A stretch of 32,000 bases of DNA from Candidatus Saccharimonadota bacterium (lineage in GTDB: Bacteria; Patescibacteriota; Gracilibacteria; UBA1369; 2-02-FULL-48-14): positions 180,001-212,000 of the forward strand of contig JBAZVE010000001.1 in assembly GCA_041661045.1 (NCBI GenBank). The letters are read 5' to 3'. Shown here piece by piece: positions 5,335 to 28,547 of the stretch. The notes below the pieces were generated by a model, which saw only the letters and a program-made list of their open reading frames with translations, was not told the origin of the DNA and made no database searches. The translations under genes and the position numbers were made by a program. Positions within the stretch are counted from its first letter, which is position 1. The number at the start of each line of letters is the position of its first letter.

Positions 5335-5335
5335 T

Positions 5336-7158: not shown

Positions 7159-7161
7159 ACC

Positions 7162-8370: not shown

Positions 8371-8381
8371 GAGCGGTATTC

Positions 8382-8409
8382 TTGCCTTTTCTTTTGTGCA
8401 GTGTAAAAT
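8382..8409 (+). promoter_or_regulatory. candidate internal promoter for the pilin gene
   Basis: TTGCCT (8382-8387), 16-nt spacer, TAAAAT (8404-8409), 30 nt upstream of the pilin ATG. Confidence 0.45.
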
Positions 8410-8438
8410 TTGTGTATCCATATTAACCCATACACGCC

Positions 8439-9029
8439 ATGGTGAACTTTACTCCGCGCAAACGCGCGTTCACGCTCATTGAGCTTTTAATCGTTATCAC
8501 CATCATCGGTATTTTGGCCGTTGCTTTGGTGCCACGACTCACCGGTGCTTCCGGCCGTGCACGAGATGCCCAAAGACAAGGTGACCTCCAACAACTCGCC
8601 GTGATGCTGGAACAATACGCCACAGATAATGGAGGGTATCCCGGAACAAGTTCTTGTGCCGGAGAAACCAGTGCTACAGGTTTTGCAACCGTCATGACTC
8701 CTTACTGGACAACGGCTATTGCCGATCCCAGCGGATCTTACTGGGCCGGAACCGGTACTCCTTGTGCGGGTGGCACTACCCCAGAATCCAGCTACGCCTA
8801 CATTGCTTTGCAAACCACTGCCGGTGGACTGGCAGAGGGATACTTACTGATTGCAAACTTGGAAAATGAGAATGCAAGAGGTAAGGGAATTTATGCAACG
8901 AGTTTCAGTGTAAGCACTTCCATCACCGCTGCCGCTAACTTTTCTGCAACCGGGAATAACGAATGTACTTCCGCTGCAGTAACCGGGTGTACCGCAGGTA
9001 CAAATATGATCTATGTTGTGGGTCGATAG
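8439..9029 (+). CDS. type IV pilin (prepilin with N-terminal cleavage/methylation domain)
   Basis: MVNFTPRKRA/FTLIELLIVITIIGILAVALVP shows a class III signal with Glu at +5. There are two Cys pairs, C72...C108 and a C-terminal CTSAAVTGC loop. 196 aa. Confidence 0.92.
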   Translation: MVNFTPRKRAFTLIELLIVITIIGILAVALVPRLTGASGRARDAQRQGDLQQLAVMLEQYATDNGGYPGTSSCAGETSATGFATVMTPYWTTAIADPSGSYWAGTGTPCAGGTTPESSYAYIALQTTAGGLAEGYLLIANLENENARGKGIYATSFSVSTSITAAANFSATGNNECTSAAVTGCTAGTNMIYVVGR

Positions 9030-9049: not shown

Positions 9050-9078
9050 AAGCCCCCGCCGAATGGTGGGGGCTTTTT
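9050..9078 (+). terminator. rho-independent terminator after the pilin gene
   Basis: aagcccccgcc (9050-9060), loop gaat, ggtgggggctt (9065-9075): an 11-bp GC-rich stem with one G-U. It is followed by a T-run to 9078. Confidence 0.8.
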
Positions 9079-15100: not shown

Positions 15101-18100
15101 TGGCCTCCAATGGTTTTTACTCCGTGTCGCTCACTGAAGAAGGGGGTCTTGAACTTTTGGATTTGAATGATGAGGACAGTTCTATGGATGGGATACAAGT
15201 CACGGTCTCGGATGGAGTGCTTCCCTTCCGTGTTCTTTCCTCCCTCACCGTGGGCCAAGCCGGTGTTCAAGCTTCCCTCCCCGAAGTTCCCAATAGCGGC
15301 GATGAATGGTTGATCGACCACAAAGAAAGCATCATCCTTAAAGTTCAACCCACTCAACCGTATCTTCTTGCGGGAAGTGCCGGTTCGGAACTTGTGACGA
15401 TTCAAGCGGTGGATGAACTGGGCTTTCCCGTTTCCGGTTTTCAAGGAGAAGTGGTTTTGAGTCTGAGCGATAGCGGTTTTGGAAGTTTTTCTTCCGAATC
15501 GATTTCCTTGGTGAGCGGCAGTGGCAGCAGCACCCTAAGCCCCGGGACCCTGGCGGGAACGGGGTCTATTCTTGCGGAAAGCCCCGGACTTTTGGGTGGC
15601 AGCGGCCCCTTGGTGGTGAAGCCTGCCGATCCTTATGAGCTTCGCATTCGCAGTGAAGATGGCGACTCGGTGCTTGCCGCGGGAGAACGAGAAAAATTCT
15701 TTATTGAAGCGTACGATGTCTATGGTAATTTTGTGAGCACGGACAGCACCACAAGCGGCTCCCTGCGCCTCACGGACAGCACTGCTGAATTTGGTACGCT
15801 GTCTTCCGGATCCTTTGTGCTCAACCAAGGCCGTGCTTCTGTTTTTGTGACTAGTGGAGAAGTGAGTGGAAAGGTGAGCTTGGTGGCGGCTTCGGAGGCA
15901 CTTTTGGCGGGGACTTGGGGTGGCACCGTGAATTTCACCCTTTCAAGTGAGGAGATTGCCGAGATCGACATGCAAATGCTTTACGCCTCCGTTTTGGGTG
16001 GGCCTTTTGGAGACAGCACCCAAGAAAATTATTTGGGCGCCTGGATGCTCTTTAATGGAAAAACTCAAGCGGTCACCAGTTTGACGAGTGAATCCAAACC
16101 CAAAAACCGTTTGGCCACGATCGATGCGACCGGCAGCATTGTCCTTGCGGAAGATGGGATGGTGAGCCAGGTGGTGCATGGAGCCGGCACGGACCTCCCC
16201 ACTCGTATTCAATGGCGAGAATTCCCCAGCGATGCTTTGCTTGCCGAAATTTTTTACAAGGTGGGAGATCTGAGTGGCGTGAGCCCTGAGCTGCTCACCA
16301 CCGATACTGATTTTGAGTTGGAAGAATCCGACGGCGCCTGGCTCCTGCGAGAGAATGCCGCCGCGGTGCTTAAAATTCGTGAGGATGGGCAAGTGGCCTT
16401 GATGGACCCGAGCTATTCTCTTGCCGTGAATGCGGCGGCGGATGGCCTGAGCCTTGTGGCCCTCAAAAACACGGATCCGGTTCTGCTCATTGATTTTGAT
16501 TCCGCTTGGAATGGCGAGCTCAAAGCCCTGGAAAGTGGTTTTGTTTTGGAAGACTGGGATCGTTTGGAGGATGGGCTTTATCTTAAGCCGACGGCTTTGA
16601 GCGAGCACCGCTTGGAGCCAATTCCAACCGGAAACAGCTCCTTGAATGCCATGGGTCTTGCCCTTGTGGATCCCTCTCAAGAATTGGCGGGAGCCATGCA
16701 GCCCTCCTTGGGCTACCCCAGTCTTGAATCGGCGGAAGACAATGGCAATATTGGTTGGGAGGAGGAGAATAAACACCTTTTGCTTTTTGCCGCGGGCAAT
16801 ACTGTGGGGCAATCGAACCTTTTCTACCCTTCTGAAATTGGAGTGGTTTTGGGAGACCCCACCATTCAACTGCCCACTGCCGGAGACATTGGTGATTTGG
16901 GCTTCACTGCGGATATTGGAGTACCCGTTTCCGCTTCCAATGAAGACATCCATACGCTTTTGGATTTGGATTACAACGGTGACGGAACCATGGATGTTTT
17001 AGCCGCATATGAGGATGGACGCATCGAAGTGCTGCAAAATGCGGACTCCGCCGTTCGTCTCAAAAATCGAGGCGAGCTTTTATTTATTGAAAACGGGATT
17101 TCCTCCATCGGTAAAGGTGACTTCAACAATGACGGATTGGAAGATCTTTTGATCGCCACTGAGGAAGCCTGCTTTGAAGGAGAGATGTGTCTTTATACTT
17201 ACGAAAACATCGGGGGCGGCTTCGTCGCCAAAAACTTAAGTCTCAGTGGTGTGTCCGGCACCCCAAAACAAATCCAAGTGGGTGATTTGAACAATGATGA
17301 TTATGACGACATTGTTTTGGTGGATGAAAATTTGGTGATGAGTGTTGTATGGAATTCTGAGGGTGTGCTTGAAACTGTGAGCCCAATTAAAGATTTTGGA
17401 CTTCAGGCGGATCCGGAAACCAATTTGGGTGGAGAGCTTGTGATTCATCATGAAGGCCTCAGCTCCGGTAGCGTGGGATTATCGGTCTTGAGCGATGAGT
17501 TTGCGAACTCTGATGCCATCAACACGGACTTTGGAGGCTTCCTCAGTGCGGTGAGTGGAGATGATGATTTTGAGAGTGACAGCGAGGGCCTTTCACAAGA
17601 AAAGACGCTTCCTTTTGAATATGCGGATGCCCTCAGTGAGCTCTTCACTGTGAGCAAGTCGTTGAGTGATCCCAACTCCGGGACGGTGGAGATTGGGGAT
17701 GTCTTAACCACCCGCGTCAGCATCCAAAATGTTTCCGGGGCCACCCTTTCGAACATCTATTTCTCCGATACGGATTCCGGTAGCTTTGCGCTCGATTGGA
17801 ATTCTTTGGACAGTGCTTTGGTCCAGGAGGGTGAAGGGTTGCGGCCCTTTATTTATGGTCCTTTTGATCTTAGTAATGGACAGCGCCTGGAGCTTGAATA
17901 CGATCTTTCCGTTCAAGCCCTCCCCGCCCTTTCCGTGCTTCTCGGCCAAGATTTTTACAGTGACTATCGAGATGATGATTATTTGGATATTGCCGTAAGT
18001 CCGGAGGGCGGAAGCGCGGGCGACTTGCTGGTGTTTTACTCTGACGGGGTGGTCACGGAAGTACGAGAGGATGGATTTTTGGGCATCGGAGAGCGAAGTT

Positions 18101-21100
18101 TCCGTCATGTCAATTACCAAGAAAAGAAATATTCTTCTTCCACTTATGAGGAAGAATACACCGATACCGCCCCCTCCCCCCTTGCCGATTCGGATGAAGA
18201 CGGAATCCCTGACTTTATAGAGGGTCTTGATGATGAAAAAGGAATCCCCGTGCCGACCGATGGCAGCTTTGATCCCATTGCGGAGGTGATGGGTGGCCAA
18301 GATACCAATGGAGACTACTACTACTCCCCCGATGAAATGTTCGTGAGTACAGAAGATTCGGATGGGGATGGTCTCCATGATTTGGTGGACGACTGGCTCA
18401 TTGCGGGAACGGATGCCTTGCTTTTGAATCCGGACTTGGATCTCACCGCGGACATTCCGGAACAAGAAATCGAACTGGAGGCTTCTTTCTCTTTCTTGGA
18501 TGAAGAAATTGAAGGGATTACTCAAAAAATAGAAGAAGTGGTGAGCATGTTTACCTGCAATGGGGGCTGTATCGCCTTCCCGGGCAGTGTCGCCTTTTTA
18601 GCACCGGGCGGCTACCACGACCCCACCACCGGAGCCACTATTATGACTGATTATGGGACGCCCATATTTGGCCTTTTGCCTTGGCTTCCCGTGGTGTGCA
18701 GCGGACAGATGTGTTACGCCTCCCAAGTGCTACGGCTGTATTTGGCCCCCACCACTACCTTGGGTCTTGGTATGGGTGTTTGCCTTGGGCAGTATGGCGC
18801 CGGGCAGTGTTTCGCTTTCTCCATCCCCATTCTTCAAGCGCTTGGGCTCTGTGATATGATGAATGGATTCATTACCGAAGCCTTGGCAAAAGCGACTGGC
18901 TTTGTTGCAGAAGGAGCTCAAGTGGCCTTTAATGTGGGGAACATCGTTTCGGTGACCGCGGGCACCAGTGGATTGGAGAGCGCGGTCTTCACCACTTACC
19001 GCCCTCCGGTTGCCGTGAACACCAATATTCAAGTGCCGGGCTTCCCTTCTATTTTCACAGAATGGTGGAAGGCCCAAAAAGAAGAATTCTTTAAGGTGCT
19101 CGACTTGCCCGATATTACTTTTATTTACCCGGACCCCAAGAGTCTCGTCGCCAAACCAAATCCCCTCACGCTCAAAGAAACGAGTGACCTGGCTTCCGCC
19201 GGCCCCCTTGAAAAGATTAAAATTGTGGAACAAGGCATCATGGGACTTGAAAAATGGCTCAACTGGGCTCATGGCCTCCCGCTGATCAATATTGATGTTG
19301 AGCCGGTGGAAGTTCGTTACCCCGCGCTCACGCAAGAAGAAATCGATATCACTCTGGCCAGTATGTATCTTTGGAAAGAGCGAACCGAGCTTGAGTGGTT
19401 GGATTTTAAGAATCAATTTGCTCTGCGGAATGATTTAACCGCCGCCCAAAAAGAGGTGGTGGATGGCATCAATGACACCATGGAGCAGGCCATCACCGCG
19501 GTGGAAGCAAACTTGGCCATTGTGGAAGGCTACTCCGAAATCCCTGAAAAGATTTTGGCGCTGCGGGATTTGGAAGCAACTATTGCTCAAATTATTGTGT
19601 GTTATCTGGATGCCATTTTGGGCAGCACCGCGGGCTATTTGGCTGAGAACGCGCAGCGCATCGAGGCCTGGGGCAATTGGGCTTTGGATATGCGAGACCT
19701 CCTCGATAGTTGGCAGGTGCTCGTCGATCTTTCTGCCGATCTCATGGATTCTTGCGACAAGTGCACCAACCAACGCTACAGCGCCATGCAGCTTTTGTTC
19801 AGTCTCTTTATTTTTATTCCGGACTTCCCCGTGGTGGAACTTCCAAAACTTCCGGACATTGTGATCGATGTGTCCAACATTCAAGGTGGGCTCACCATTG
19901 TGTGGCCGGATCTCAAATTTATACCCGAGCGGCTCAATATTCCAGAATTACCCGTTATTGTGTTCCCCGATGTGGATCTTAAATTGGATGCGGATTTTGA
20001 TTTTGATTTGGATATCCCCACTCTGCCCGTTCCCAATCTTGATATCGAGTTGCCCCCGCTGCCTCCTCTCACCCTACCGAACCTCCCGGATCTTCCCCCT
20101 CCACCGGCCATACCGGCCTTGGATCCTTCACTGGAAGCCGCGCTCAGTATTTCCAGCAATATCTTAAAAATCGTTTGTATCATTCGCCAAGGATTTATTC
20201 CTGTGCCTGAGTTTGCGCTCAAAGCGAAAATTGAAGAAATCACCGAAAGACCCGGCGGCATTATTCTTCCCATTGATTTGGCAATTACGGTGGAGTGGCC
20301 CAAATTCAATTATGACTTTGTAAAGGAGATTCAGGTCAACACCATGATGAACTTCAGTTGGGAGATCACCACTTTTTATGACTTTATCGCCGGCATTGGG
20401 GAAAAGAGCAACGGCATGCTGACGGACTTTGTGCAGGAAAGCATCAACAAGCCTTTGGAAGAGCTCCAAAAAGACATTCAAGATGTGTTTGATCTTTTGG
20501 GTGAACAAGAATGGGACCTTGAAGTGGACGCGGAGTTTGATGGCGAAGCGAGCCCGGATGGCGCGGATGCTTCCACAGATGGAGGGGTGGGGGTTCAAGG
20601 CGATCTTGAGAATGATGGCGAAGACGCTATTCAGGAATTTGAGGATATTGAGGAGGATATTGAGAGTGGCTTTGAGTCCTACCAAGAGGCTATGGACACC
20701 GCGCTGGCCTACAAAGATCACCCTTTGGTGAAACAAAACTTAGCCATGCTCAAGAGCACTTTGGAGACCATGCAAAAAGAATTCAAGGCGTGGGATGCCG
20801 TGATGCCCGATGAAGTTTTGCTTTCCGTGGAATCGCAAGAGCTGGCCTTGGATGATCCTTTGCTTCATCGATTTGATGAGATCCGTCGCTCCCCCAATCT
20901 CGATCAAGACTTTTTGGCGAGCATTGAGGGGACTCCGCTTTCTTCGGTGGTGAGTTTGCGTGATTCCTTGCTTGCGAGTACCGAGGATTTGATGCAAGGC
21001 ACCGTGGCTTTGAAAGGCATGGGAGATGAATCCTTTTACCGTTATTTGGCGGCGGAACAAGTTGGAAATCCCGTGGCTTTGGCGGGCATCGCAGCAGAGG

Positions 21101-24100
21101 GGGAAGCACTTTCTACACGATGGATTGAAGAACTCAATCGTGTTGAGTTGGCTGCAGAGATGGATGACGCGAGTTCTGCCGCGAGTTTCGACTCCGAGAG
21201 TCTTGAGCTTGGCGCTCAAGCGGAATCCACGAACCAAGGTTTGTATATTTATAATTCTGAAACGGGTGTGAGTGAACGATTGGTGGACTACACGCAAGAA
21301 TCCGATGAGGCCACCAGCCTTTTGTTCATGGACATTGATGAGGATGGGGATCAGGACTTGGTCTACTCCATGGGAGGTGATATTTATCTAAAAGAAAATC
21401 ATACTGAGACCGCAAGCGTACGAGCCGTGAGCGAAGACCCACTGGAACGCCGCGTGCAGGATTTGGATCCCGGCCAGGGCAGTGTTCACAATTTGAAACG
21501 AGGTAAAAATGATTACTCAGAGGCAAGCTTCGCGTTCAATGGCGCTGAAACTGCGGTGGGCTATGAAGTGCTTTTGTATGATTCTTTGGATGCCGAGGAG
21601 TCCAACCCCGATGAAAACATTAAAAGACTTTTGCTTTTGAATGAAGGTGAAAATGAAAGCCTACCCTTTGTGGATGAGGAAGAAAATTCGGTTGGAACCT
21701 TGCAAAAGAGCCGGCTTTGGGTGGATGCCGTCAGTGGAAAAGTTTCACTTCAAAATGCCTACCAACGCACCTTCATTGATACCAATGGAGAAATTGAGGT
21801 CGGTGAGGCCGTGATTTTTCAAACCATTGAGAACAGTGTTATTGAGTTTGATTCCGCGAATAGCTCTTCTTCCATCTCCGTTCCTGCCGGTTCCTTGCTT
21901 CACTTCTCGGCGCAAGCGGAACTGCGTTTGCGAGTTGAGCAAGGCTCTGTTTACTGGATTGATGCCACGGAAAAAGTGGACACTCAGGATCTTGAGCAAG
22001 GGATGGAAATTTTTGCGGAAGAGCTGATTGCCTTGGAAAGTTCCGGGGCCGATGCCACCTTGCTCAGCAGCGATGGCCTCTCACTAGATCTGGATCAGGA
22101 AGAACTCTTTGTTATGGACTCTCTTGTGAGTACCGATAATCCTGCGGTCACGGTTCAACTGGAAAATGGGGCTTACTATGCCATCACTCGCGCCCTCTAT
22201 GAAGGAGGCGGGATCGGTACAAAATCTGAAAATATTCTCCTCAATCCTCAAGTGTGTGCGGATGACAGTGAGCCTTATATTTTGGTGGATAACGGCGGAG
22301 ATGAGGATGGCGGTGATGGCTTGGTGGACAGTGATGGGGATGGGGCCTTGGAACTGGCCATTTTCTCCGTGCGTGAGCTTTCTGCCGAGTCTTCTTTCGA
22401 TAGCGACAGTGCGATTGTGGATGCCTATTGGGATTTGGATGACCAAGTGGACAGCGATGGAGACGGCATCAAAAATAATGATGACCAGTCTTTGGGCCTT
22501 ACGACGGAAATTGGGCCTTATGAAGACACGAGAGAGCGCATTGTTACCCTGTATGTCACGGACAGTGCCGGGAATACTGCTGTGCAAGAGATTGCTGTGG
22601 AAATTTATGTGCCTGCCATTGTGCTCACCGAAGCCACGGTGGATTTTGTCCGAGGGATAACGGATCCGCTCAGCCCCGATTTCCCCTTCCATTTGATTCG
22701 CGATCGCAATGGAGTCCTGAAAGAAATAGGAGAAGGAGCCGGCACCGATGCCTATGGGGAAATCTATGAGGAATTGATTCCTTCCAACCGTTTAGCGGTT
22801 TACGATTCCACCGGAGAGGTGGTTGCCGAATTCAATCCCGTCACTAAACAAGTGCTGGTTTACGACTCCGCCTATGCCTCTGCAGTGCTGCCCGCGGGCG
22901 ATGAATGGCCTTCTCGTTTGGTGGTTTACCAAAAGAGCTTTGGGGCCGTGGTGGGCAGTTTCCTCTTTGTGAATTCCGCTTCCACTCAAATCCGTGAGGT
23001 CGCCGTGCCTTTGGAGAATTTGGATCTGTCCATTTACGATTATCCAACGGTCTACACGGTTTCCGATTCCGAGCACTACGAGTTCACGCAAAATTCTTTG
23101 GTTGCACGCAATTCTCTTGGGGCGCTGGAATTTATGCTGAGTCCCAGTGGCAGCATCAGCATCTTTGATGAAAGGTATCACTTGGTGAAACGAGCCGCGA
23201 GTTCTCTGGATGAATATCTTGTGATTGAGGTTTACGATGGTGATCAACTCGAGCTTGAGATCTGGCCCGGAAGCCCCGATGCGCTTCACCTCACCACCAC
23301 GGAAGAGTTGGATCTGCCCGGTTCCGAGCTCTTGAATCCCGGCACTTCCGGCTCCGGCAGCACACGGCTTGTCTTTGAAGATATTGATGAAGATGATCCT
23401 TTGTACAAAAATCTTGTAGAGCTTGTGGAGCGCGGCATTTTGGAGGGGTATACCGAAAACGATGCGCAGTACTTTAAGCCCGATCAAGCCATCAACCGTG
23501 CGGAATTCACCAAGATTATTTTAGGAATCCTTTGTATTGTTCCACGGGATGAGGCGGAGGCACTGCCCTCTGTTTTCAATGATATTTTGGATCCCACCGT
23601 TTGGTATTTTGGAGTGACCAAAGAATCCTTCTTGCGAGAACTCATCACGGGTTACTTGGGAGAAGTCGATTCTGCCGGAGTGGCTCCATTTAAACCCAAC
23701 AAAACCATCAGCCGTGCAGAGGCGGTTAAAATTGTGCTCGAGGCTTTGGATAAAGAAAATATTATTGAGCTTCCGGAGAATCTTGTGGGAGAGCCTTGGT
23801 ACGATCCTTATATGAATATCGCTCAGGATTTGACCCCCTACTTGGTGAGTGATTCCACCGCGGGCAGTGAATCGTTTATTGTGACTAAGGAGGAAGCCAA
23901 AGATCCTTTGCATGAGCTCACTCGTTATGAATTTGTGGAAATGTCTGTTCGTGTACTGGAGGCTTATAACTGTTTCGATTTGGACAGTGATGGAGATGGA
24001 CTCTTCAACATTGACGAAGAGACCGTGTACGGTACCGACCCCTACAATCCCGACACCGATGCCGGTGGCGTGGACGATGGCAGTGAGGTGGACCGAGGCA

Positions 24101-24318
24101 GTGATCCTTTGAATGGAAGGGATGACTTTGCGGATGACTCCGGCGATGGGCTAGAGCCTGGCATTTATGCGGTACAAGAGCCTTGTATTGCTTGTCCTTG
24201 CACTGCCACCATCGATTATGCCGCGGAACTTCGACCGGGGGATACTGTGTTTGCTATAATTCAAAATGCCGCCGGAGAAATCTTTGGAATCAGCAACTCA
24301 TTAACCCTAGAGGAATGA
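9175..24318 (+). CDS. giant (5047 aa) secreted mosaic cell-surface protein with SLH anchors
   Basis: A 15,144-nt ORF without a stop. Signal peptide: MRPRLHSNALKKIVIYGFLMSFLSSLLPMNRVAEA. Motif-level domains: TSP3-like DxDxDG Ca-binding repeats (~10090-10440, 13790-13905, 18190-18400, 23975-24125) and Ig-like Big domains (~12870-13110 plus four in tandem at ~14690-15900). Also FG-GAP/VCBS repeats (~16950-17340, 21320-21400), a PKD-like module (~22500-22620) and two SLH triads. Confidence 0.9.
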   Translation: MRPRLHSNALKKIVIYGFLMSFLSSLLPMNRVAEALSVVGSSDPVVVENPGGSLPELRNTGTVETRYGLVAILVEDSLWSANSGGSGFFSFLGTSGLKQKIQTYAEDVQATLPWTKTVIIQVEDEDTPVEIQRMLERFYFEGNPDDSDFTRLTGVVMVGSVPLPVVNKNGNRFVSLLPYTDFEEPSYLLDETSLDFLPNLEAQNLQAEVWHGLIVPPLDGQEGLDLLAAFFDKNHKFHTGDPEYTSFDEKIFVGDLVTEQSAINPTSYDSYDRFVGLWEELSYYRYTNDLVEDLYTDMQASVEAGDSLDNDGDGNYDEEAANGKDEDGDGLVDEDIGDGFFGIDNDEDGQVDEDHFEDNNNDKGWVYSGYTDSEADTLFSDKMVDEDPPGDSNGDGCPGHCGVDDNGDSEDHDGDGYPTGLEALYGWDWANEKKPWRSVKNWTNGQFGTSFETADAATEYLQEMFVDQFFNDGLRSPTCYASDGSYHSEWDDDEDGFCDEDGSVEMQIWTSPSGGSASGTCAYNDADCDGLIDEDPLGIQPAALFEDLPDIQARDIVGQLTSRYAELFDQPQGVWNRLVDQTGRYETRKSDGETVQNDYDTAISLISKKDEFTLQYLRSLNDNLEAQLNTIVEENLAEDIPIIAGLQITGWVQRAGEGAESICDPEGPVDPDGDKCLQFVNHSGFDNTLFDSEGALTDLDELEPSDYYISGQQLWDVHDANQCTSFAGTDEEGGQLAQFNTLYSRLFSVVAAEMTKADVKDYRNCVPEFASYLEDIPELCDEATVTKEIRVLDGAKTPEAEDTSRWEVGAEACFEFREVFTFNRYSQSVAEFNNWLTNKIRAFRKDGDDDEASYQEFLEKVEEERDRHDPRPDEATLRQPFANLDMIAADASLEYTMEDLLIELGYSAPSDDDIDTFLALQDEIQIENPSEGSGMSGVEELSLSFDKLFLKKDTEELTTLRSEAAEISSFAKHTQPTIATLNAQATNAGSPNLPIDATRRVSFIDAEGLAQELVYINVFDAQTLEAVQAQVAALAADMEEVAGGNRFVNTVENFYTGINADQLADALEWRGLSIDAKHRYVLSHYLGEEEPVVAKARSGYEMVSLIADGNAQELYFAFNGDQPETEEDLEFLYRSQAEIEAALAAAQADAAEEYEALAPVSGTTPVVLVEWINEIQEWLRDLEDSTSSFTIASLLDGEQVCGSASAAEVDTTDADDDGIVDSAEATGSLFLSTDESTVLQAGGGDYLTVSVAARNADGTINTEDSSTRVELRIVSGTESIEILGTASLVLTGGVASFTLESAAAGSFGLQALAESREDIRSSDVLNGSSEPKFVKLSTYITNLEHAGTDTVMEGDRIEIRDEEGTVRAVLNPITGDLDLRNAVVKLLEATEDLPTRISVESGEGLVYGVIFLIPEEGELDIQVLHPSAGIASAENGTALEENGVQMGLVTDLGQITLSAGYLLDFETPSNLNIYDPLHILNDDGESLFTVTLGTADDEASAEILKDEGEYSDYLGAVLGKILGWMGVGSAKADSVIPDSDGDLLDDLEEWVIGTVLSNGDSDGDGYLDGLEIFSGYDPLAEGKKLFTDIGIENPAYPDLALLYLRGVIKGYTDGSFRPDNPITREEFVKIDLGAICEDCDSYDAVYETELLAAYGLDPFPDTTINPELLACVAEAKGREIVSGYAGGEEEGYFLPKQFISRAEATKVLVETAGYSVDPVAEGEVWYSQYIATAEAHSLFPEGSPLTTEWLEESITRAEFVMMAVNMIEDKDCRTPMMDSNRNGIPDVEELDDPEEIPEVPEIPGVPDAFSGFGGYEHGPGLFVVSPNATVETITIGSGEGLTRVNLFTNEIPANGESEIFVRAEIRDVDDHIYAEDDSSVIEFILSSSEHGTVESSRVRVKNGVAETRFVGTDFAGTVTVEGRISDGSLPSQNAQIHLLPGEPVRVVLEGESRVLPAGAEASTNMNLSLYDSFGNLASNGFYSVSLTEEGGLELLDLNDEDSSMDGIQVTVSDGVLPFRVLSSLTVGQAGVQASLPEVPNSGDEWLIDHKESIILKVQPTQPYLLAGSAGSELVTIQAVDELGFPVSGFQGEVVLSLSDSGFGSFSSESISLVSGSGSSTLSPGTLAGTGSILAESPGLLGGSGPLVVKPADPYELRIRSEDGDSVLAAGEREKFFIEAYDVYGNFVSTDSTTSGSLRLTDSTAEFGTLSSGSFVLNQGRASVFVTSGEVSGKVSLVAASEALLAGTWGGTVNFTLSSEEIAEIDMQMLYASVLGGPFGDSTQENYLGAWMLFNGKTQAVTSLTSESKPKNRLATIDATGSIVLAEDGMVSQVVHGAGTDLPTRIQWREFPSDALLAEIFYKVGDLSGVSPELLTTDTDFELEESDGAWLLRENAAAVLKIREDGQVALMDPSYSLAVNAAADGLSLVALKNTDPVLLIDFDSAWNGELKALESGFVLEDWDRLEDGLYLKPTALSEHRLEPIPTGNSSLNAMGLALVDPSQELAGAMQPSLGYPSLESAEDNGNIGWEEENKHLLLFAAGNTVGQSNLFYPSEIGVVLGDPTIQLPTAGDIGDLGFTADIGVPVSASNEDIHTLLDLDYNGDGTMDVLAAYEDGRIEVLQNADSAVRLKNRGELLFIENGISSIGKGDFNNDGLEDLLIATEEACFEGEMCLYTYENIGGGFVAKNLSLSGVSGTPKQIQVGDLNNDDYDDIVLVDENLVMSVVWNSEGVLETVSPIKDFGLQADPETNLGGELVIHHEGLSSGSVGLSVLSDEFANSDAINTDFGGFLSAVSGDDDFESDSEGLSQEKTLPFEYADALSELFTVSKSLSDPNSGTVEIGDVLTTRVSIQNVSGATLSNIYFSDTDSGSFALDWNSLDSALVQEGEGLRPFIYGPFDLSNGQRLELEYDLSVQALPALSVLLGQDFYSDYRDDDYLDIAVSPEGGSAGDLLVFYSDGVVTEVREDGFLGIGERSFRHVNYQEKKYSSSTYEEEYTDTAPSPLADSDEDGIPDFIEGLDDEKGIPVPTDGSFDPIAEVMGGQDTNGDYYYSPDEMFVSTEDSDGDGLHDLVDDWLIAGTDALLLNPDLDLTADIPEQEIELEASFSFLDEEIEGITQKIEEVVSMFTCNGGCIAFPGSVAFLAPGGYHDPTTGATIMTDYGTPIFGLLPWLPVVCSGQMCYASQVLRLYLAPTTTLGLGMGVCLGQYGAGQCFAFSIPILQALGLCDMMNGFITEALAKATGFVAEGAQVAFNVGNIVSVTAGTSGLESAVFTTYRPPVAVNTNIQVPGFPSIFTEWWKAQKEEFFKVLDLPDITFIYPDPKSLVAKPNPLTLKETSDLASAGPLEKIKIVEQGIMGLEKWLNWAHGLPLINIDVEPVEVRYPALTQEEIDITLASMYLWKERTELEWLDFKNQFALRNDLTAAQKEVVDGINDTMEQAITAVEANLAIVEGYSEIPEKILALRDLEATIAQIIVCYLDAILGSTAGYLAENAQRIEAWGNWALDMRDLLDSWQVLVDLSADLMDSCDKCTNQRYSAMQLLFSLFIFIPDFPVVELPKLPDIVIDVSNIQGGLTIVWPDLKFIPERLNIPELPVIVFPDVDLKLDADFDFDLDIPTLPVPNLDIELPPLPPLTLPNLPDLPPPPAIPALDPSLEAALSISSNILKIVCIIRQGFIPVPEFALKAKIEEITERPGGIILPIDLAITVEWPKFNYDFVKEIQVNTMMNFSWEITTFYDFIAGIGEKSNGMLTDFVQESINKPLEELQKDIQDVFDLLGEQEWDLEVDAEFDGEASPDGADASTDGGVGVQGDLENDGEDAIQEFEDIEEDIESGFESYQEAMDTALAYKDHPLVKQNLAMLKSTLETMQKEFKAWDAVMPDEVLLSVESQELALDDPLLHRFDEIRRSPNLDQDFLASIEGTPLSSVVSLRDSLLASTEDLMQGTVALKGMGDESFYRYLAAEQVGNPVALAGIAAEGEALSTRWIEELNRVELAAEMDDASSAASFDSESLELGAQAESTNQGLYIYNSETGVSERLVDYTQESDEATSLLFMDIDEDGDQDLVYSMGGDIYLKENHTETASVRAVSEDPLERRVQDLDPGQGSVHNLKRGKNDYSEASFAFNGAETAVGYEVLLYDSLDAEESNPDENIKRLLLLNEGENESLPFVDEEENSVGTLQKSRLWVDAVSGKVSLQNAYQRTFIDTNGEIEVGEAVIFQTIENSVIEFDSANSSSSISVPAGSLLHFSAQAELRLRVEQGSVYWIDATEKVDTQDLEQGMEIFAEELIALESSGADATLLSSDGLSLDLDQEELFVMDSLVSTDNPAVTVQLENGAYYAITRALYEGGGIGTKSENILLNPQVCADDSEPYILVDNGGDEDGGDGLVDSDGDGALELAIFSVRELSAESSFDSDSAIVDAYWDLDDQVDSDGDGIKNNDDQSLGLTTEIGPYEDTRERIVTLYVTDSAGNTAVQEIAVEIYVPAIVLTEATVDFVRGITDPLSPDFPFHLIRDRNGVLKEIGEGAGTDAYGEIYEELIPSNRLAVYDSTGEVVAEFNPVTKQVLVYDSAYASAVLPAGDEWPSRLVVYQKSFGAVVGSFLFVNSASTQIREVAVPLENLDLSIYDYPTVYTVSDSEHYEFTQNSLVARNSLGALEFMLSPSGSISIFDERYHLVKRAASSLDEYLVIEVYDGDQLELEIWPGSPDALHLTTTEELDLPGSELLNPGTSGSGSTRLVFEDIDEDDPLYKNLVELVERGILEGYTENDAQYFKPDQAINRAEFTKIILGILCIVPRDEAEALPSVFNDILDPTVWYFGVTKESFLRELITGYLGEVDSAGVAPFKPNKTISRAEAVKIVLEALDKENIIELPENLVGEPWYDPYMNIAQDLTPYLVSDSTAGSESFIVTKEEAKDPLHELTRYEFVEMSVRVLEAYNCFDLDSDGDGLFNIDEETVYGTDPYNPDTDAGGVDDGSEVDRGSDPLNGRDDFADDSGDGLEPGIYAVQEPCIACPCTATIDYAAELRPGDTVFAIIQNAAGEIFGISNSLTLEE
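13930..14478 (+). other. internal triple S-layer-homology (SLH) module of the giant protein
   Basis: FTDIGIENPAYPDLALLYLRGVIKGYTDGSFRPDNPITREEFVKI, then FPDTTINPELLACVAEAKGREIVSGYAGGEEEGYFLPKQFISRAEATKVLV, then VWYSQYIATAEAHSLFPEG...ITRAEFVMMAV. These fit the SLH pattern F.D...........G...GY.DG.F.P...[IV][ST]R[AE]E. Confidence 0.6.
23374..23967 (+). other. C-terminal triple SLH module of the giant protein
   Basis: FEDIDEDDPLYKNLVELVERGILEGYTENDAQYFKPDQAINRAEFTKIIL, then FNDILDPTVWYFGVTKESFLRELITGYLGEVDSAGVAPFKPNKTISRAEAVKIVL, then a degenerate third copy ending LTRYEFVEMSVRVLE. Confidence 0.6.
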
Positions 24319-24908
24319 TGCCTTTGCCTCAAAAATTGGAGTCCCGACTTTTCTTGCTTTGCCTCAGCTTGATGCTGGTCTTCAATGGTTTGTTTTATGC
24401 TCTTGCGGAGGAGACAACGGGAGAAACCGTTGCTACCGAGATCGAAGGTGTGGACTATGCCTGCGGGCAGGCTGTGACTGAACAGGCCTCTGTCCTTATT
24501 GACTCTTACCAAACCTTTTTGGATGACTATTTTAAAGTGGATACACCTTCCAGCAGCCAAGTGGATCATGCCATGCGTTACTACCGATACATGGAAAGTT
24601 CCATTGAAGCCATTTATGAAAACAACTTGGATCTTTATGCCAATACGACTCTCCAAGACAGCACCCAGGCGAGCAGTGATTGTGCAGGCAGACGAGATTT
24701 CTATTTGGATGTCGCCCGCGCTCTGCTTCAAAAACAAGTCATCGCTTCTGCGAACAGCAAGCGCACTTTTGAAGTGATCGATGGTCTTAAAATCATGAAT
24801 GCCGATTTGGAAGAATTTTCCGATGAGTTCAATGCTGTCTTCCCCGCTTACTTCAATAAATTCAACAATGCTTTACCCTGTTACGCTCGCCAATGCATAG
24901 TAAAATGA
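24315..24908 (+). CDS. secreted hypothetical protein P1 (197 aa), first of the four-gene cassette
   Basis: The ATG at 24315 overlaps the giant-gene TGA (ATGA). The track ORF from 24183 is an in-frame extension inside the giant gene. Signal-like MMPLPQKLESRLFLLCLSLMLVFNGLFYALA. Ends ...LPCYARQCIVK. Confidence 0.75.
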   Translation: MMPLPQKLESRLFLLCLSLMLVFNGLFYALAEETTGETVATEIEGVDYACGQAVTEQASVLIDSYQTFLDDYFKVDTPSSSQVDHAMRYYRYMESSIEAIYENNLDLYANTTLQDSTQASSDCAGRRDFYLDVARALLQKQVIASANSKRTFEVIDGLKIMNADLEEFSDEFNAVFPAYFNKFNNALPCYARQCIVK

Positions 24909-25543
24909 AATGGTTTAAATGGTTTGTGCTGGCCTTTGCGGCCGGCTTCCTTCTCCCCCATACTTATGGTTCGCTTCTGCTTGCCAGCGTTTTGGATACC
25001 AAGAGCACTTACGACGGCATGACCATGACCGATGCCATTCGAACTTACCATGTGGCCAACACTGTGATTGTGGATGAGTTCTTTTTAAGGCCCCTGTTGG
25101 ACCCGGATTTTGCAACGCTTGGTTATGTTAAATATCCGGACCCGGAAACGGGCTGCGAAAAAAATGTGTCCACTTACTGTTTGGCTTTGGCCTTGGATGA
25201 GAACCTGGTTCAATTTGAAATTTACTTGAGAAAAAGCCAGGATGCCTTGGATTTTGGAACGGCGGAAGAAGGGAGCGAACAGCCCCTCTCCTTGAACGAT
25301 GCCTTGCAAGAAGCCACCTCACAAAGAACCGTGGTGGATCAACAAATCTTGCTGGCGGAAGAGAGCATCGATTTAACTTTGGCCGTGTACAACCAGGTGC
25401 AGTTGGTTTACCCCGTGCACAGCGAAATGCTGAAGTTGATTGGAAACCTGGATGATTACCGCGGGAATTTGGGGGAAATTCGGGACATCGTGGAAAAGTA
25501 TCCTTCTAAATTTAATGGAGCGAGCACCGCTCAATGCCAATGA
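24905..25543 (+). CDS. secreted hypothetical protein P2 (212 aa)
   Basis: The ATG at 24905 overlaps the P1 stop (ATGA); an alternative ATG lies at 24893. N-terminus MKWFKWFVLAFAAGFLLPHTYG is hydrophobic. Ends ...YPSKFNGASTAQCQ. Confidence 0.75.
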   Translation: MKWFKWFVLAFAAGFLLPHTYGSLLLASVLDTKSTYDGMTMTDAIRTYHVANTVIVDEFFLRPLLDPDFATLGYVKYPDPETGCEKNVSTYCLALALDENLVQFEIYLRKSQDALDFGTAEEGSEQPLSLNDALQEATSQRTVVDQQILLAEESIDLTLAVYNQVQLVYPVHSEMLKLIGNLDDYRGNLGEIRDIVEKYPSKFNGASTAQCQ

Positions 25544-27453
25544 AAAAATTCTTTTTATTCGGAATTGGATTGGTTTTGAGCCTTGCTGCCGGCATGTCGG
25601 TAAGCCGGGCTTTGGTTCCCAATGAAGACGATTTGCTTCAGCAAATTTTTGAGGAGGCGGGCATTGAGATGAGTGAAAAAACGGATGCGAAAGAACTCGA
25701 AAATTTGGCGGCCAACAGTGAAGCGCCTTTTTCTGGGCTCTATCTTTTTATGTTACAAAATATTGTGCAAGGGCCACGGGATGCGGCGGCCGTTGAGATC
25801 GCGGAGCGCTTTAAATACACGGAAGATGAAATCAAAAACATTGTTTTGGAAGGCAGCGTGGAGCCCATCATCGACAAACAGCGAGGAGAAGCTTCGGCGG
25901 TTCAATCCCAAGAAGTGGTGGATCAAATGACGGCAGCCGTCACCCAAGGGGATGCGGATTTTGAGACCTTTCTTTCCAGCAATAGTTTTAGCCCCGTCAC
26001 CGAATCTTATCTCCGTTGGCATTATCAAACCTATGAACGCCCCCCCCTTCCCTCCGAAATCGGTACCGTGCTCAGCAATGATTTTGTGCTCAAAGAATTC
26101 ACCGCCATTGGCGATGCTTATGATGATGAGCTTCAATTTCAGGAAGACAACCGGCGCTTGGCTTACGAAACCTTGGCCAGCGAAATGTTCTTCAATAATG
26201 ATTTGGGCGATTCCGCCAATATCGACATTTTGTACGATTTGGATTTGATCCATTATCTTTTGTTTGGCGACTTCATCACCTACCCCGATCGCAGCGGAGG
26301 TTCTGTGGATTTGGCTTCGGAGGAAGCGCTTCAACTTTTCCCAGAGCCGAGCGCAGAGGGCTCTGAGGAAGAAGCCGTGGTGGTTTTGGCGGAAGAGCCG
26401 GCAGAAGCTCCGTTCAATCCCTATGCGTGTTATGCCGATGAAGGCCTCACGGAGGCACTCGATTCCTTCGCTACCAATCCCCCGGATCTTGGTTCAGCGC
26501 TCCCGGAGCCTGAAAATTCTTTTAATTATGAGATTCCCGGACGAGATGGCACGGGCGGCGAGGATGGCAGTGGCGGCAGTGCCGGCACACTTGATGGCGC
26601 AACCGATGGCGAGGCGGGTGGGTCCGGTGGCAGTGGCGGAACGGAGAATCCTTATGCTGTGGATATTGGCGCGGCCTTTGAAGCTTTGGATGCTTTCCTC
26701 CTCTCTTTGGAGATGAAGCCGGGAGATTGGATGCGCACGCTGCCCTGCAGTGGAGTTTTTTGTATCGAAATTAAATTCATCCCCGAAACCAACGACCCCG
26801 AAGTGGATACGGAGCGCATGCAGGCGGATGATTTTGAGCCGACTGAGAACTGCGTCGCGTGCCATACCGCTTATATAAAAGAACGGCTCACCGAAACCAT
26901 GAGCAAGAGCTTGGTGCCCAGCAAAATCACTAAGAATTGGTTTGAAGATGCCACTTGCAAGGATGCCGGCTATCACATCAATTTGGACCTCAATGTGTAT
27001 GCCATTAAAAAGCCCATAGACTTGGATACCGGAGACACACTGGACGACAAAGCCGGTGAAGAAATCGATGAATTTAAAACCCAACTTTTTGGAATTGCGG
27101 GCATCCCTCTTCCGGATGGCTCAGGTGGAATTTTGGGCAAGAGCAAGAGTGAATCGGAATGTGAGAGCCTTTTGAATATTGGAAAAATGGTGGGGACGGA
27201 ACGCAAGATCGACGAACTTTTGGGAAGTTGCCAGAAGGCTGCCGACAGTAATGTGGCCGAGCTGCAAGAAGTTTTTGATGAATTCGTTTATAATATTCAT
27301 TCTCAAACTACCAGTGATTTGTTCTCTCAAGTTTCCAGCGAGCTCTACAGCATGCTTCTCTATTTCCAAAACTTTCAGGGAAGCTTGGAAGCCACCTACC
27401 TCACTGAACAAGCCCCTCTTTCCGTTCTCATTAATAAAGAATACTGCCAATGA
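25540..27453 (+). CDS. secreted hypothetical protein P3 (637 aa) with Gly/Asp-rich linker and Cys-rich module
   Basis: The ATG at 25540 overlaps the P2 stop (ATGA). Signal MKKFFLFGIGLVLSLAAGMSVSRA. Low-complexity GRDGTGGEDGSGGSAGTLDGATDGEAGGSGGSGG (~26540-26650). Then LPCSGVFCIEIKF...ENCVACH...ATCKD. Ends ...NKEYCQ. Confidence 0.8.
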   Translation: MKKFFLFGIGLVLSLAAGMSVSRALVPNEDDLLQQIFEEAGIEMSEKTDAKELENLAANSEAPFSGLYLFMLQNIVQGPRDAAAVEIAERFKYTEDEIKNIVLEGSVEPIIDKQRGEASAVQSQEVVDQMTAAVTQGDADFETFLSSNSFSPVTESYLRWHYQTYERPPLPSEIGTVLSNDFVLKEFTAIGDAYDDELQFQEDNRRLAYETLASEMFFNNDLGDSANIDILYDLDLIHYLLFGDFITYPDRSGGSVDLASEEALQLFPEPSAEGSEEEAVVVLAEEPAEAPFNPYACYADEGLTEALDSFATNPPDLGSALPEPENSFNYEIPGRDGTGGEDGSGGSAGTLDGATDGEAGGSGGSGGTENPYAVDIGAAFEALDAFLLSLEMKPGDWMRTLPCSGVFCIEIKFIPETNDPEVDTERMQADDFEPTENCVACHTAYIKERLTETMSKSLVPSKITKNWFEDATCKDAGYHINLDLNVYAIKKPIDLDTGDTLDDKAGEEIDEFKTQLFGIAGIPLPDGSGGILGKSKSESECESLLNIGKMVGTERKIDELLGSCQKAADSNVAELQEVFDEFVYNIHSQTTSDLFSQVSSELYSMLLYFQNFQGSLEATYLTEQAPLSVLINKEYCQ

Positions 27454-28547
27454 GATTTCCTACTAAAATTCTTTTTTCATTTTTCCTCCTCGCTGGGCTT
27501 GGGCTCTCCGCTGCCGCTGTGCCCGCTCAAGCTCTGGAGATTCCAGAAGGTCTGGAAAGTTTGGCGGAGCCCCTTTGTCCGGGGGCTTGGGCGGACTACT
27601 ATGGCTTTGTGCTGACCGTTCGCAATGAAGATACGCGTCAACAAACCTTCAAAGATTTGTTCACCGTCGGGTACTGTCAACTGTATGATATTTTGGCCTT
27701 GGAAGAGGAGTTGGACAATACCCGTGAGCGCTTCCGTGCCGCGGCTTTTGCCTGCCAAGATACCCAAGCGTACAAAATCGACTACCACCGCATTCTTATG
27801 GAGCAACATTTCATTAGAAACATCCAAAATGAGCCCTCGGATGTGATCAATGTAAAAGATGCGGAACTTTATGAGGAGCTTAAAGAAGAACGACTGAGTG
27901 CCTTGCAAAGCGAGATGCTCGATGCTTTTGTTGTGGAGGAGAAATGGTTGACTGAAGGAGATTTCGAAGATCTTTTTGCGAGCTGGACGGAAAAGTACGA
28001 TGACCGCATTGGAGATTATAGCCAATGTGAAGAAGGTTCCTGGTCTCAGATCCGTGAAACTGTTGAAGAATTTCAAGAAACGATTGATGAACTTCAAGTC
28101 GATGTTAAAAAGAGAGAAAATCTTAATTTTAAAGATAATTTTTCCCTCAGCACCAGCGATTTGGAAAAAGAATTTGAAAACTTAAGATCCACCGGGGACA
28201 GCGCCCTGCACGGTTGGGAGTACTACAAGAACCTCGTGAGTCTTGAAAAAATTGAAGTGGATCCTGCGGCAACGGTGAGTGACCTCACAAGTTCCGGAGA
28301 TGTCTTTACCTTTGGCTCTGCTCTCGACCTTTTGCAAGAAGATATTATAAGGCAAGAGATTGAGGCGCAGCAGGCGGAGCGAAAAGCTCGTTATGCTTTG
28401 CTTTATGGAGAAGGGGGTGCGGCGGCCGCCACGGATATGCAGGCCATTTTGGATGCACTCAACCAAAGCATCGCCGCCTCCAATACCAAAGACCTCCCCG
28501 CTATTTTGGATCGAGTCGCTAAGATCTACGATATGCAGTGCAACTAA
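27450..28547 (+). CDS. secreted hypothetical protein P4 (365 aa)
   Basis: The ATG at 27450 overlaps the P3 stop (ATGA). Signal MRFPTKILFSFFLLAGLGLSAAAVPAQA. Acidic and helical-looking. Ends ...KIYDMQCN. Confidence 0.8.
   Translation: MRFPTKILFSFFLLAGLGLSAAAVPAQALEIPEGLESLAEPLCPGAWADYYGFVLTVRNEDTRQQTFKDLFTVGYCQLYDILALEEELDNTRERFRAAAFACQDTQAYKIDYHRILMEQHFIRNIQNEPSDVINVKDAELYEELKEERLSALQSEMLDAFVVEEKWLTEGDFEDLFASWTEKYDDRIGDYSQCEEGSWSQIRETVEEFQETIDELQVDVKKRENLNFKDNFSLSTSDLEKEFENLRSTGDSALHGWEYYKNLVSLEKIEVDPAATVSDLTSSGDVFTFGSALDLLQEDIIRQEIEAQQAERKARYALLYGEGGAAAATDMQAILDALNQSIAASNTKDLPAILDRVAKIYDMQCN

What the first reader, a model, noticed from the sequence alone, without database searches (positions are those of the whole stretch)
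24315..28547. Four-gene cassette of secreted, Cys-capped proteins chained by ATGA overlaps to the giant gene
All four junctions are ATGA stop/start overlaps: giant/P1 at 24315-24318, P1/P2 at 24905-24908, P2/P3 at 25540-25543 and P3/P4 at 27450-27453. This implies translational coupling and fixed stoichiometry with the giant protein. Every product has an N-terminal signal-like hydrophobic segment. Every product also ends with a Cys 2-4 residues from the C-terminus (P1 ...ARQCIVK, P2 ...TAQCQ, P3 ...KEYCQ, P4 ...DMQCN). P2 and P3 even share the terminal codons TGC CAA TGA. P1 and P2 share [FY]P[AS]xFN...AxQC. P1, P2 and P4 each have an early Tyr-(Ala)-Cys followed by an amphipathic helix-like stretch (VDYACGQAV, STYCLALALDENL, VGYCQLYDILALEEEL). 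This looks like a diverged paralog family whose N- and C-proximal cysteines could close a helical bundle, or form intermolecular disulfides with the Cys-rich core of the giant protein. I recognise no described family or function.
Basis: seen in the sequence. Interest (0 to 1): 0.75.

Follow-up and report, generated by a model that had tools for sequence, protein, structure and literature searches.

The report
Disulfide-linked partners of a giant surface protein
Four small exported proteins of unknown family always follow one giant cell-surface gene in Peregrinibacteria, and the way their tail cysteines are gained and lost together across different proteins suggests they are tied to each other by disulfide bonds.

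Summary
ATGA sits in frame at all four junctions. All four products have an N-terminal hydrophobic segment and a cysteine 2-4 residues from the C-terminus. The window is from a Peregrinibacteria (CPR) chromosome.

The order giant gene-P1-P2-P3-P4 recurs in about 50 genomes. Junctions are always tight, and a convergent uvrA-sized gene (uvrA in the window) follows P4. In the window's clade a type IV pilus cluster lies upstream. None of the four proteins matches Pfam, NCBIfam, PDB sequences or PDB folds.

They are not a four-member paralog family. Only P1 and P2 show weak profile similarity (49-63% probability).

The terminal cysteines are conserved. They appear to be left over after the internal cysteines pair within each protein. 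The number of tail cysteines in P1+P3+P4 is even in 46 of 46 genomes. Every change along the tree flips two different proteins at once.

The most likely reading is a covalently linked accessory complex of the giant SLH-anchored protein. Function is still inferred, and binding to the giant protein is untested.

The parts
9175..24318 (+). Giant gene (5047 aa). It encodes an exported protein with an N-terminal signal or anchor, Ca-binding-like Asp-rich repeats, SLH domains and FG-GAP repeats. The C-terminal ~2900 aa are conserved. A universal CxxCxC cluster (C5004, C5007, C5009) lies about 40 aa from the C-terminus.
   Evidence: ORF. SLH and FG-GAP by Pfam. No strong internal TM segment. The C-terminal ~2900 aa are conserved in about 40 loci. 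Universal Cys columns.
24315..24908 (+). P1 (197 aa; alternative start 24318). Exported and probably helical. Cys50 and Cys123 are universal. The tail cysteines are Cys189 (about half of the genomes) and Cys194.
   Evidence: No Pfam, NCBIfam or PDB match.
24905..25543 (+). P2 (212 aa; probable start 24893, giving 216 aa). Exported helical bundle. Invariant residues are H49, C84, N87, S89, C92, Y162, H172, F203 and the penultimate C211.
   Evidence: AlphaFold2 model with pLDDT 84.6, in which the C-terminal tail has low confidence. No fold match.
25540..27453 (+). P3 (637 aa; alternative start 25534). Exported. It has a helical N-terminal domain, an acidic/Gly-rich linker, a Cys-rich core with a universal CxxC (C438, C441) plus C408 and C473, a helical C-terminal domain, and a tail Cys636.
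   Evidence: No Pfam or PDB match.
27450..28547 (+). P4 (365 aa). Exported. The internal cysteines are C43, C76, C102 and C193. C43 and C102 are lost together in L013. The tail Cys364 sits in a conserved [KR]QC motif.
   Evidence: No Pfam or PDB match.
4177..9029 (+). Upstream type IV pilus genes. They are an unassigned 385-aa ORF, a PilO/T2SSM-like gene, the PilB-type ATPase, PilC, and a prepilin with an N-methylation motif.
   Evidence: Pfam and NCBIfam. The order PilC-pilin-giant is kept in 13 metagenome loci.
9050..9075 (+). Terminator-like hairpin (11-bp stem, 8 GC pairs, T-rich tail) between the pilin gene and the giant gene.

Best explanation
P1 to P4 are four Sec-exported proteins made from one transcript together with a giant SLH-anchored surface protein. 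The operon is conserved across Peregrinibacteria and sits on the chromosome.

Most likely they are structural partners of the giant protein's conserved C-terminal half. Inside each protein the internal cysteines pair with each other. The cysteines in the last ~16 residues are left over, and they bond between subunits. The C-terminal tails of P1, P3 and P4 would therefore be covalently tied together. The single tail Cys of P2 would go to another partner, either the giant protein's C-terminal CxxCxC cluster or a second P2.

- **Shown:** operon conservation, export signals, Cys conservation, and the cross-protein compensatory Cys changes.
- **Inferred:** actual disulfide formation, binding to the giant protein, and a role in cell-surface architecture or host attachment next to the type IV pilus.
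For: - **Gene order.** Giant-P1-P2-P3-P4 is kept in all loci where it can be seen, with junctions of -28 to +36 nt.
- **Giant protein.** Its C-terminal ~2900 aa are conserved in about 40 loci.
- **Downstream synteny.** A convergent ~960-aa gene (uvrA in the window) follows P4 almost everywhere, so this is a core chromosomal locus.
- **Export.** Hydrophobic N-termini with AxA-like sites and no other TM segment.
- **Internal cysteines are even in number and co-vary within a protein.** Examples are P3 C541/C564, the extra pair in P2, and P4 C43/C102.
- **Odd totals.** Mature Cys counts in the window clade are P1 4, P2 3, P3 9 and P4 5. The sum over the four proteins is odd in 38/41 genomes. The three exceptions come from a signal-peptide Cys or a truncated P3.
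- **Tail-Cys patterns.** For (P1,P2,P3,P4) only five patterns occur: (2,1,1,1), (1,1,1,2), (1,1,0,1), (2,1,2,2) and (0,1,1,1). P1+P3+P4 is even in 46/46 genomes.
- **Paired flips on the tree.** Parity changes always hit two proteins at once. P3+P4 flip together at least twice independently (L028 vs L042; L044/49/51/52 vs their sisters). P1+P4 flip together in clade A vs the rest and in L046 vs L047.
- **P2 model.** The P2 tail is the low-confidence, unpacked part of an otherwise confident model.
- **Giant protein cysteines.** It has 14 universal Cys plus one in 29/35, including three near its own C-terminus.
- **Literature.** Peribacteria genomes are reported to encode cysteine-rich exported proteins and one disulfide-bond-formation protein (PMC4736985).
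Against: - There is no direct evidence of any disulfide or of any protein-protein contact.
- The parity argument rests on roughly six independent evolutionary transitions, not on 46 independent genomes.
- Signal-peptide cleavage sites were estimated from hydrophobicity only.
- Where a tail carries two Cys they could close a small loop. The exact connectivity is therefore ambiguous.
- Many Peregrinibacteria live in anoxic settings where exported thiols may stay reduced.
- The terminator-like hairpin before the giant gene means the link to the pilus genes may be synteny only.
- No structure could be obtained for P1 or P4, and the P3 model is poor (pLDDT 59).
Confidence: 0.5

Rival explanations
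1. Thiol-redox or metal module. The tail cysteines are free thiols. They either exchange with the universal CxxC of P3, which would act as an extracytoplasmic thiol-disulfide oxidoreductase or isomerase serving the Cys-rich giant protein, or they ligate a metal shared between subunits.
For: - P3 carries a CxxC that is conserved in 53/53 sequences. It sits at the N-terminus of a predicted helix, the usual position of redox-active CxxC motifs.
- P2 has invariant H49, H172 and Y162 in addition to C211.
- The giant protein has many conserved cysteines that need oxidation.
Against: - No thioredoxin-like match in Pfam, PDB sequences or PDB folds.
- The region around the CxxC is modelled with low confidence.
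- A shared metal site would predict a constant number of ligand cysteines. The tail-Cys total instead varies between 3, 5 and 7.
- Free thiols would not be expected to keep an even count across proteins.
Confidence: 0.17
2. Assembly or export helpers. P1-P4 are chaperone-like or scaffold factors needed to fold, export or anchor the giant protein. Alternatively they are accessories of the neighbouring type IV pilus. They would not be permanent stoichiometric subunits.
For: - They are strictly co-located with the giant gene.
- In the window's clade they lie downstream of PilB, PilC and the pilin gene.
- Giant genes of Omnitrophota are likewise preceded by type II/type IV-like secretion loci (bioRxiv 10.1101/2023.11.21.568195).
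Against: - P1-P4 have no prepilin (class III) signal. The neighbouring pilin does.
- They show no similarity to known chaperones or secretion components.
- The compensatory Cys pattern among P1, P3 and P4 points to a stable hetero-complex.
- A terminator-like hairpin separates the pilin gene from the giant gene.
Confidence: 0.15
3. Intramolecular staples. Each terminal Cys pairs with an N-proximal Cys of the same chain and closes a helical bundle. The four proteins would then act independently.
For: - Each protein has an early conserved Cys as well as the terminal one.
- P1 in the window clade has an even number of mature cysteines (4).
Against: - Mature P2, P3 and P4 have odd Cys counts in the window clade (3, 9 and 5).
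- The internal cysteines already form co-varying pairs of their own.
- P2's C84 and C92 lie 8 residues apart next to a helix start, while C211 is in the low-confidence tail.
- Loss or gain of a tail Cys is compensated in a different protein, not in the same one.
Confidence: 0.08
4. Nothing special. These are four unrelated hypothetical genes that merely share an operon, and the terminal cysteines and ATGA overlaps are coincidence.
For: - ATGA overlaps are common in prokaryotic operons and are not conserved at these junctions.
- About 10% of other ORFs in these loci also have a Cys in the last five residues.
Against: - The terminal or tail Cys is kept in 45/46, 48/48, 47/52 and 52/52 homologs, at sequence identities down to 15-25%.
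- Gene order is invariant across the phylum.
Confidence: 0.03

Closest known systems
Giant surface-protein loci of CPR and Omnitrophota bacteria. These include the large Cys-rich exported proteins of Peribacteria (PMC4736985), the giant membrane proteins of Vampirococcus (PMC8080830), and the Omnitrophota giant genes preceded by type II/IV secretion-like loci (bioRxiv 10.1101/2023.11.21.568195).
   Same: - A very large exported protein with adhesion-type domains (FG-GAP, SLH, Ca-binding repeats).
- It lies next to type IV pilus / type II secretion-like genes.
- The organisms are presumed to live attached to other cells.
   Different: - None of those papers, as far as read here, describes a conserved four-gene accessory cassette or conserved C-terminal cysteines.
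- The Omnitrophota giant genes are followed by PilZ genes and sugar-uptake genes instead.
Disulfide-cross-linked envelope protein assemblies, for example the chlamydial outer membrane complex (MOMP/OmcA/OmcB) and the Cys-rich exosporium and coat proteins of Bacillus (from my own knowledge).
   Same: Several different exported proteins are held together by intermolecular disulfides and form part of the cell envelope.
   Different: - There is no sequence or fold relationship.
- Those systems use many cysteines spread over Cys-rich proteins. They do not use a single cysteine at the extreme C-terminus of each subunit.
Eukaryotic heterotrimer 'disulfide knots', in which laminin alpha/beta/gamma chains or fibrinogen chains are joined near one end by inter-chain disulfides (from my own knowledge).
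   Same: Different helical chains are tied together covalently at one terminus by a few cysteines.
   Different: - This is an analogy only, with no homology.
- Coiled-coil pairing of P1-P4 has not been shown.
Type IV pilins and minor pilins.
   Same: They are encoded next to pilus assembly genes. They are small exported proteins that often have a C-terminal disulfide.
   Different: - P1-P4 lack the prepilin cleavage/N-methylation motif that the adjacent pilin has.
- The pilin disulfide is intramolecular.

Membership tests
   BLASTP finds no significant pair. hhalign gives P1-P2 49-63% probability and score 35.5, against 15-24 for reversed decoys. All other pairs are below 5%.
P1/P2 as distant paralogs | Collinear profile alignment over most of the length that scores above decoys, plus the same fold | tested here: inconclusive
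   The alignment covers 132 columns (P1 49-181, P2 47-204) and scores above the decoys. Probability is only 49-63%.
Type IV pilin / pseudopilin | Class III signal peptide with the G|F-x-x-x-E N-methylation motif | tested here: not met
   Pfam N_methyl and TIGR02532 hit the neighbouring gene at 8439-9029. They do not hit P1-P4.
Bacterial lipoprotein | Lipobox [LVI][ASTVI][GAS]C at the end of the signal peptide | tested here: not met
   Reading the N-termini shows no lipobox. P1, P3 and P4 end their h-region with ALA, SRA and AQA, which are type I sites.
Sortase substrate | C-terminal LPXTG-like motif followed by a hydrophobic segment and a basic tail | tested here: not met
   The C-termini end 1-4 residues after the Cys with no hydrophobic segment.
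c-type cytochrome (for P3) | Conserved CxxCH haem-attachment motif | tested here: not met
   CxxC is present in 53/53 sequences. The His is present in only 25/53 and is Glu in 21.
Thioredoxin-fold thiol-disulfide oxidoreductase (for P3) | CxxC at a helix N-terminus within a thioredoxin fold | tested here: inconclusive
   The CxxC is universal and precedes predicted helix 439-455. There is no Pfam, PDB-sequence or Foldseek match, and pLDDT around the motif is below 50.
SLH-domain cell-wall-anchored protein | One or more SLH domains | tested here: met
   This applies to the giant protein only. SLH scores E=6.8e-16 and 4.7e-8. P1-P4 have none.
ClyA/Hbl-type tripartite alpha-pore-forming toxins | Match to the HBL/ClyA families or fold, and three homologous ~350-450 aa components | tested here: not met
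   No Pfam hit. The only fold hit to AhlB is at E=6.5 with TM 0.06. The components are not homologous to each other.

The most novel reading that the evidence does not exclude
Peregrinibacteria build a five-protein extracellular machine, made of the giant SLH protein plus P1-P4. Its subunits are knotted together covalently at their C-terminal tails by a small disulfide network. The wiring of that network has been swapped between partners several times in evolution: P3-P4, P1-P4 and P1-P3 links replace one another. This complex would be the core of the cell-surface or host-attachment apparatus that works beside the type IV pilus.
Probability: 0.3. Interest if true: 0.75.

Novelty: new variant of a known kind. 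Interest (0 to 1): 0.55.

Why it matters
How CPR bacteria build their surface and hold on to host cells is largely unknown. Their giant proteins are usually treated as stand-alone adhesins.

- **Partners of the giant protein.** A set of four partner proteins that is universal across a whole phylum would show that at least one giant protein works as part of a multi-subunit complex. It would also give four small, tractable targets for expression, structure determination and antibody labelling.
- **A reusable method.** The cross-protein compensatory cysteine pattern is a cheap, sequence-only way to predict inter-subunit disulfides. It could be applied to other uncultured lineages.

Tried and rejected
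**Family and structure searches that found nothing**
- Pfam and NCBIfam scans of P1-P4 gave no credible hit, and neither did a Pfam scan of 40 P1 homologs.
- Profile searches of all four families against PDB sequences found nothing below E=0.001.
- Foldseek of the P2 model against the PDB and viral structures found no match below E=0.5.
- Foldseek of the P3 model against the PDB found no match below E=1.
- NCBIfam on the giant protein found nothing.

**Similarity tests that failed**
- BLASTP all-against-all among P1-P4 found nothing.
- BLASTP and hhalign of P1-P4 against the giant protein found nothing.

**Ideas considered and dropped**
- Haem c binding by the P3 CxxCH, because the His is not conserved.
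- A CaaX-like reading of P1's C-terminal CIVK. These are Sec-exported proteins, and P2-P4 do not fit the pattern.
- A link to the upstream radical SAM gene (a variant radical SAM family). It is separated from the cassette by the pilus genes and nothing connects it.
- Extra conserved genes after P4. There are none; the next conserved gene is a convergent uvrA-sized gene.

**Limits on structure prediction**
- The single-sequence homolog search for P4 returned only 9 proteins.


Full report
**1. What is in the window**

The ORF map and the sequence show a 5047-aa gene at 9175-24318. Four genes follow it on the same strand: P1 24315-24908, P2 24905-25543, P3 25540-27453 and P4 27450-28547.

Three junctions also offer another in-frame ATG, at 24318, 24893 and 25534. 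The public gene call for the same contig uses those alternatives. Close P2 homologs lack the -4 ATG and must start at the -16 position. Every candidate start still overlaps the upstream gene, so the chaining is real. Only the P3/P4 ATGA is unambiguous.

The shared TGC CAA TGA at the ends of P2 and P3 has a simple cause. A conserved Cys is followed by a last codon that must end in A so that it overlaps the next ATG.

**2. Context**

- Upstream genes are rplJ/rplL, a radical SAM gene, and a type IV pilus set. The pilus set consists of a PilO-like gene, a PilB-type ATPase, PilC, and a prepilin with the N-methylation motif.
- A terminator-like hairpin (9050-9075) lies between the pilin gene and the giant gene.
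- The giant protein has an N-terminal signal, SLH domains and FG-GAP repeats, and no strong internal membrane segment. It looks like a wall-anchored surface protein.
- Downstream of P4 are genes on the other strand, including an MFS transporter and uvrA.
- Homologs are named Candidatus Peregrinibacteria, Peribacteria or "Gracilibacteria" MAGs. The source contig is 1.3 Mb.

**3. Conservation**

- P3 has 50 homologs at 32-59% identity, all without Pfam domains.
- An exhaustive profile search finds 339 cluster representatives, and those listed are about 500-700 aa apart from fragments.
- A scan of one genome per species returned 52 loci.
- In these loci P1, P2, P3 and P4 homologs occur in the same order, directly after a very long ORF that runs off the 10-kb flank.
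- Where single-sequence search missed P1, a family HMM finds it in the expected slot.
- One apparently short giant ORF (L007) is a frameshifted full-length homolog.
- The C-terminal ~2900 aa of the giant protein are conserved in about 40 loci.
- A convergent gene of about 960 aa, the size of the window's uvrA, follows P4 almost everywhere.
- In 13 metagenome loci whose PilC is at least 42% identical, the order PilC-pilin-giant is also kept.
- This is therefore a core chromosomal locus of the phylum, not a mobile cassette.
- Junctions are always tight (-28 to +36 nt), but ATGA itself occurs in only 17-43% of cases.

**4. Are the four proteins related?**

BLASTP finds nothing. Profile-profile comparison gives P1 vs P2 a 49-63% probability. 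The score is 35.5 over 132 collinear columns that exclude the signal peptide. Reversed decoys score 15-24, and the other real pairs score 20-28 with probabilities below 5%.

P1 and P2 may be distant paralogs. P3 and P4 are separate families. The "early Tyr-Cys" motif is not a shared homologous feature.

None of the four resembles the giant protein, any Pfam or NCBIfam family, or any PDB sequence.

**5. Structure**

- **P2.** The AlphaFold2 model from 50 sequences is confident (pLDDT 84.6, pTM 0.69). It is a helical bundle with helices at 41-65, 90-113 and 130-197. The last dozen residues, which include C211, are the least confident part.
- **P3.** The model is poor overall (pLDDT 59). Only the helical N-terminal domain is well predicted.
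- **Fold searches.** Foldseek finds no meaningful match for either model in the PDB, or for P2 among viral structures. Two other fold libraries were not available.

**6. Export**

Nearly all homologs have a hydrophobic N-terminal segment and no further membrane segment. P1, P3 and P4 have AxA-like cleavage sites. There is no lipobox, no prepilin motif and no sortase signal.

**7. The cysteines**

This is the most informative part.

*Conservation.* The tail Cys is conserved.
- P1: 45/46 within the last 16 residues.
- P2: 48/48, always the penultimate residue.
- P3: 47/52 within the last 16.
- P4: 52/52 within the last 16.
- Background in the same loci: 10% of other long ORFs have a Cys in the last five residues.

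*Internal cysteines.* They come in even numbers, and they are gained or lost two at a time within a protein. Examples are P3 C541 with C564, an extra pair in some P2, and P4 C43 with C102.

*Odd totals.* This leaves the tail cysteines unpaired. Mature counts in the window clade are P1 4, P2 3, P3 9 and P4 5. Summed over the four proteins, the count is odd in 38 of 41 genomes. The three exceptions are a Cys inside the signal peptide (twice) and a truncated P3.

*Tail patterns.* Counting only the last 16 residues, five patterns occur for (P1,P2,P3,P4).

| Pattern (P1,P2,P3,P4) | Genomes |
|---|---|
| (2,1,1,1) | 18 |
| (1,1,1,2) | 18 |
| (1,1,0,1) | 5 |
| (2,1,2,2) | 4 |
| (0,1,1,1) | 1 |

P1+P3+P4 is even in 46 of 46 genomes.

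*Changes on the tree.* On a tree of the concatenated proteins, each change of parity affects two different proteins at once.
- P3 and P4 flip together at least twice independently (L028 vs its sister L042; the L044/49/51/52 clade vs its sisters).
- P1 and P4 flip together between the window clade and the rest, and between L046 and L047.

*Reading.* This is the protein-level equivalent of compensatory base changes. It is what inter-chain disulfides among the C-terminal tails would produce. It is not expected for free thiols, for homodimers, or for intrachain staples.

P2 always keeps exactly one tail Cys. Its partner could be the giant protein, which has a universal CxxCxC cluster about 40 residues from its own C-terminus and an apparently odd number of near-universal cysteines. 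It could also be a second P2.

*Caveats.* There are about six independent events, not 46. Cleavage sites are estimates. Two-Cys tails could close local loops, so the exact wiring is open.

**8. P3 detail**

P3 has a CxxC conserved in 53/53 sequences, just before a predicted helix. C408, C473, K462 and E469 are also universal. The His that makes it look like a haem CxxCH motif is present in only 25/53 sequences. A redox or metal role for P3 cannot be excluded. That is the main rival reading.

**9. Literature**

- Peribacteria genomes were noted for large, Cys-rich exported proteins, pili, and one disulfide-formation protein (PMC4736985).
- Vampirococcus has giant membrane proteins thought to mediate attachment (PMC8080830).
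- Omnitrophota giant genes sit after type II/IV-like secretion loci, but are followed by PilZ and sugar-uptake genes (bioRxiv 10.1101/2023.11.21.568195).
- I found no description of this four-gene cassette or of its terminal cysteines. The library does not cover all journals.

**10. Verdict**

It is a conserved unit with the giant gene, and the cysteines most likely act between proteins. It is not a four-member paralog family, and the terminal Cys does not appear to staple its own chain.

The best explanation, at about 50% confidence, is a disulfide-linked set of accessory subunits of a giant SLH-anchored surface protein. Function remains inferred. I rate interest at 0.55. The cassette consists of four orphan families that are universal in a poorly understood phylum, it yields a testable prediction about covalent architecture, and no experimental or structural proof exists yet.

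Noticed in passing
L018 (JBLIGW010000031.1), 1-4800: This contig is binned as Oceanicoccus sp., a gammaproteobacterium. It nevertheless carries the Peregrinibacteria P3-P4 genes followed by a uvrA-sized gene on the minus strand. It is probably a mis-binned contig.
   Followed up: partly
window 9050-9075: A strong terminator-like hairpin (11-bp stem, 8 GC pairs) lies directly after the pilin gene and about 100 nt before the giant gene. The pilus genes and the giant operon may therefore be separate transcripts despite the conserved order.
   Followed up: partly
window 26851-26865 (P3 residues 438-442): A CxxC motif is conserved in 53/53 P3 homologs and sits at the start of a predicted helix. In the window clade a His follows, so it reads as a haem-like CxxCH. 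That His is Glu or Thr in the other clades.
   Followed up: yes
window 24184-24201 (giant residues 5004-5009): The giant protein also has a universal cysteine cluster (CIACPC) about 40 residues from its C-terminus. All five proteins of the operon therefore carry cysteines near the C-terminus.
   Followed up: partly
window 27450-28547: The NCBI record for this genome annotates P4 as an N-terminally truncated 234-aa protein (WC777_00965). The full ORF with its signal peptide is 365 aa and is supported by homologs.
   Followed up: partly
window 9130-11115 (-), 11203-12510 (-), 13633-14844 (-): Long antisense ORFs (403-661 aa) lie inside the giant gene, which has a strongly positive GC skew (up to 0.26). 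They look like non-coding shadow ORFs.
   Followed up: no
window 1409-2336 (-) and 2001-3000: A NikA-like mobilisation-protein ORF and an unassigned 172-aa ORF lie in or beside a low-GC patch (0.387) between rplL and the radical SAM gene. This may be a remnant of a mobile element.
   Followed up: no
window 2837-4081: A radical SAM protein of a 'variant rSAM' / MSMEG_0568-like type lies just upstream of the pilus genes. No link to the cassette was found.
   Followed up: partly
L002-L053, region after the P4 homolog: A convergent ~960-aa gene follows the cassette in almost every genome, at protein identities as low as ~20%. By size it corresponds to the window's uvrA, but it was not scanned against any family. 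This is unusually deep synteny for CPR genomes.
   Followed up: partly
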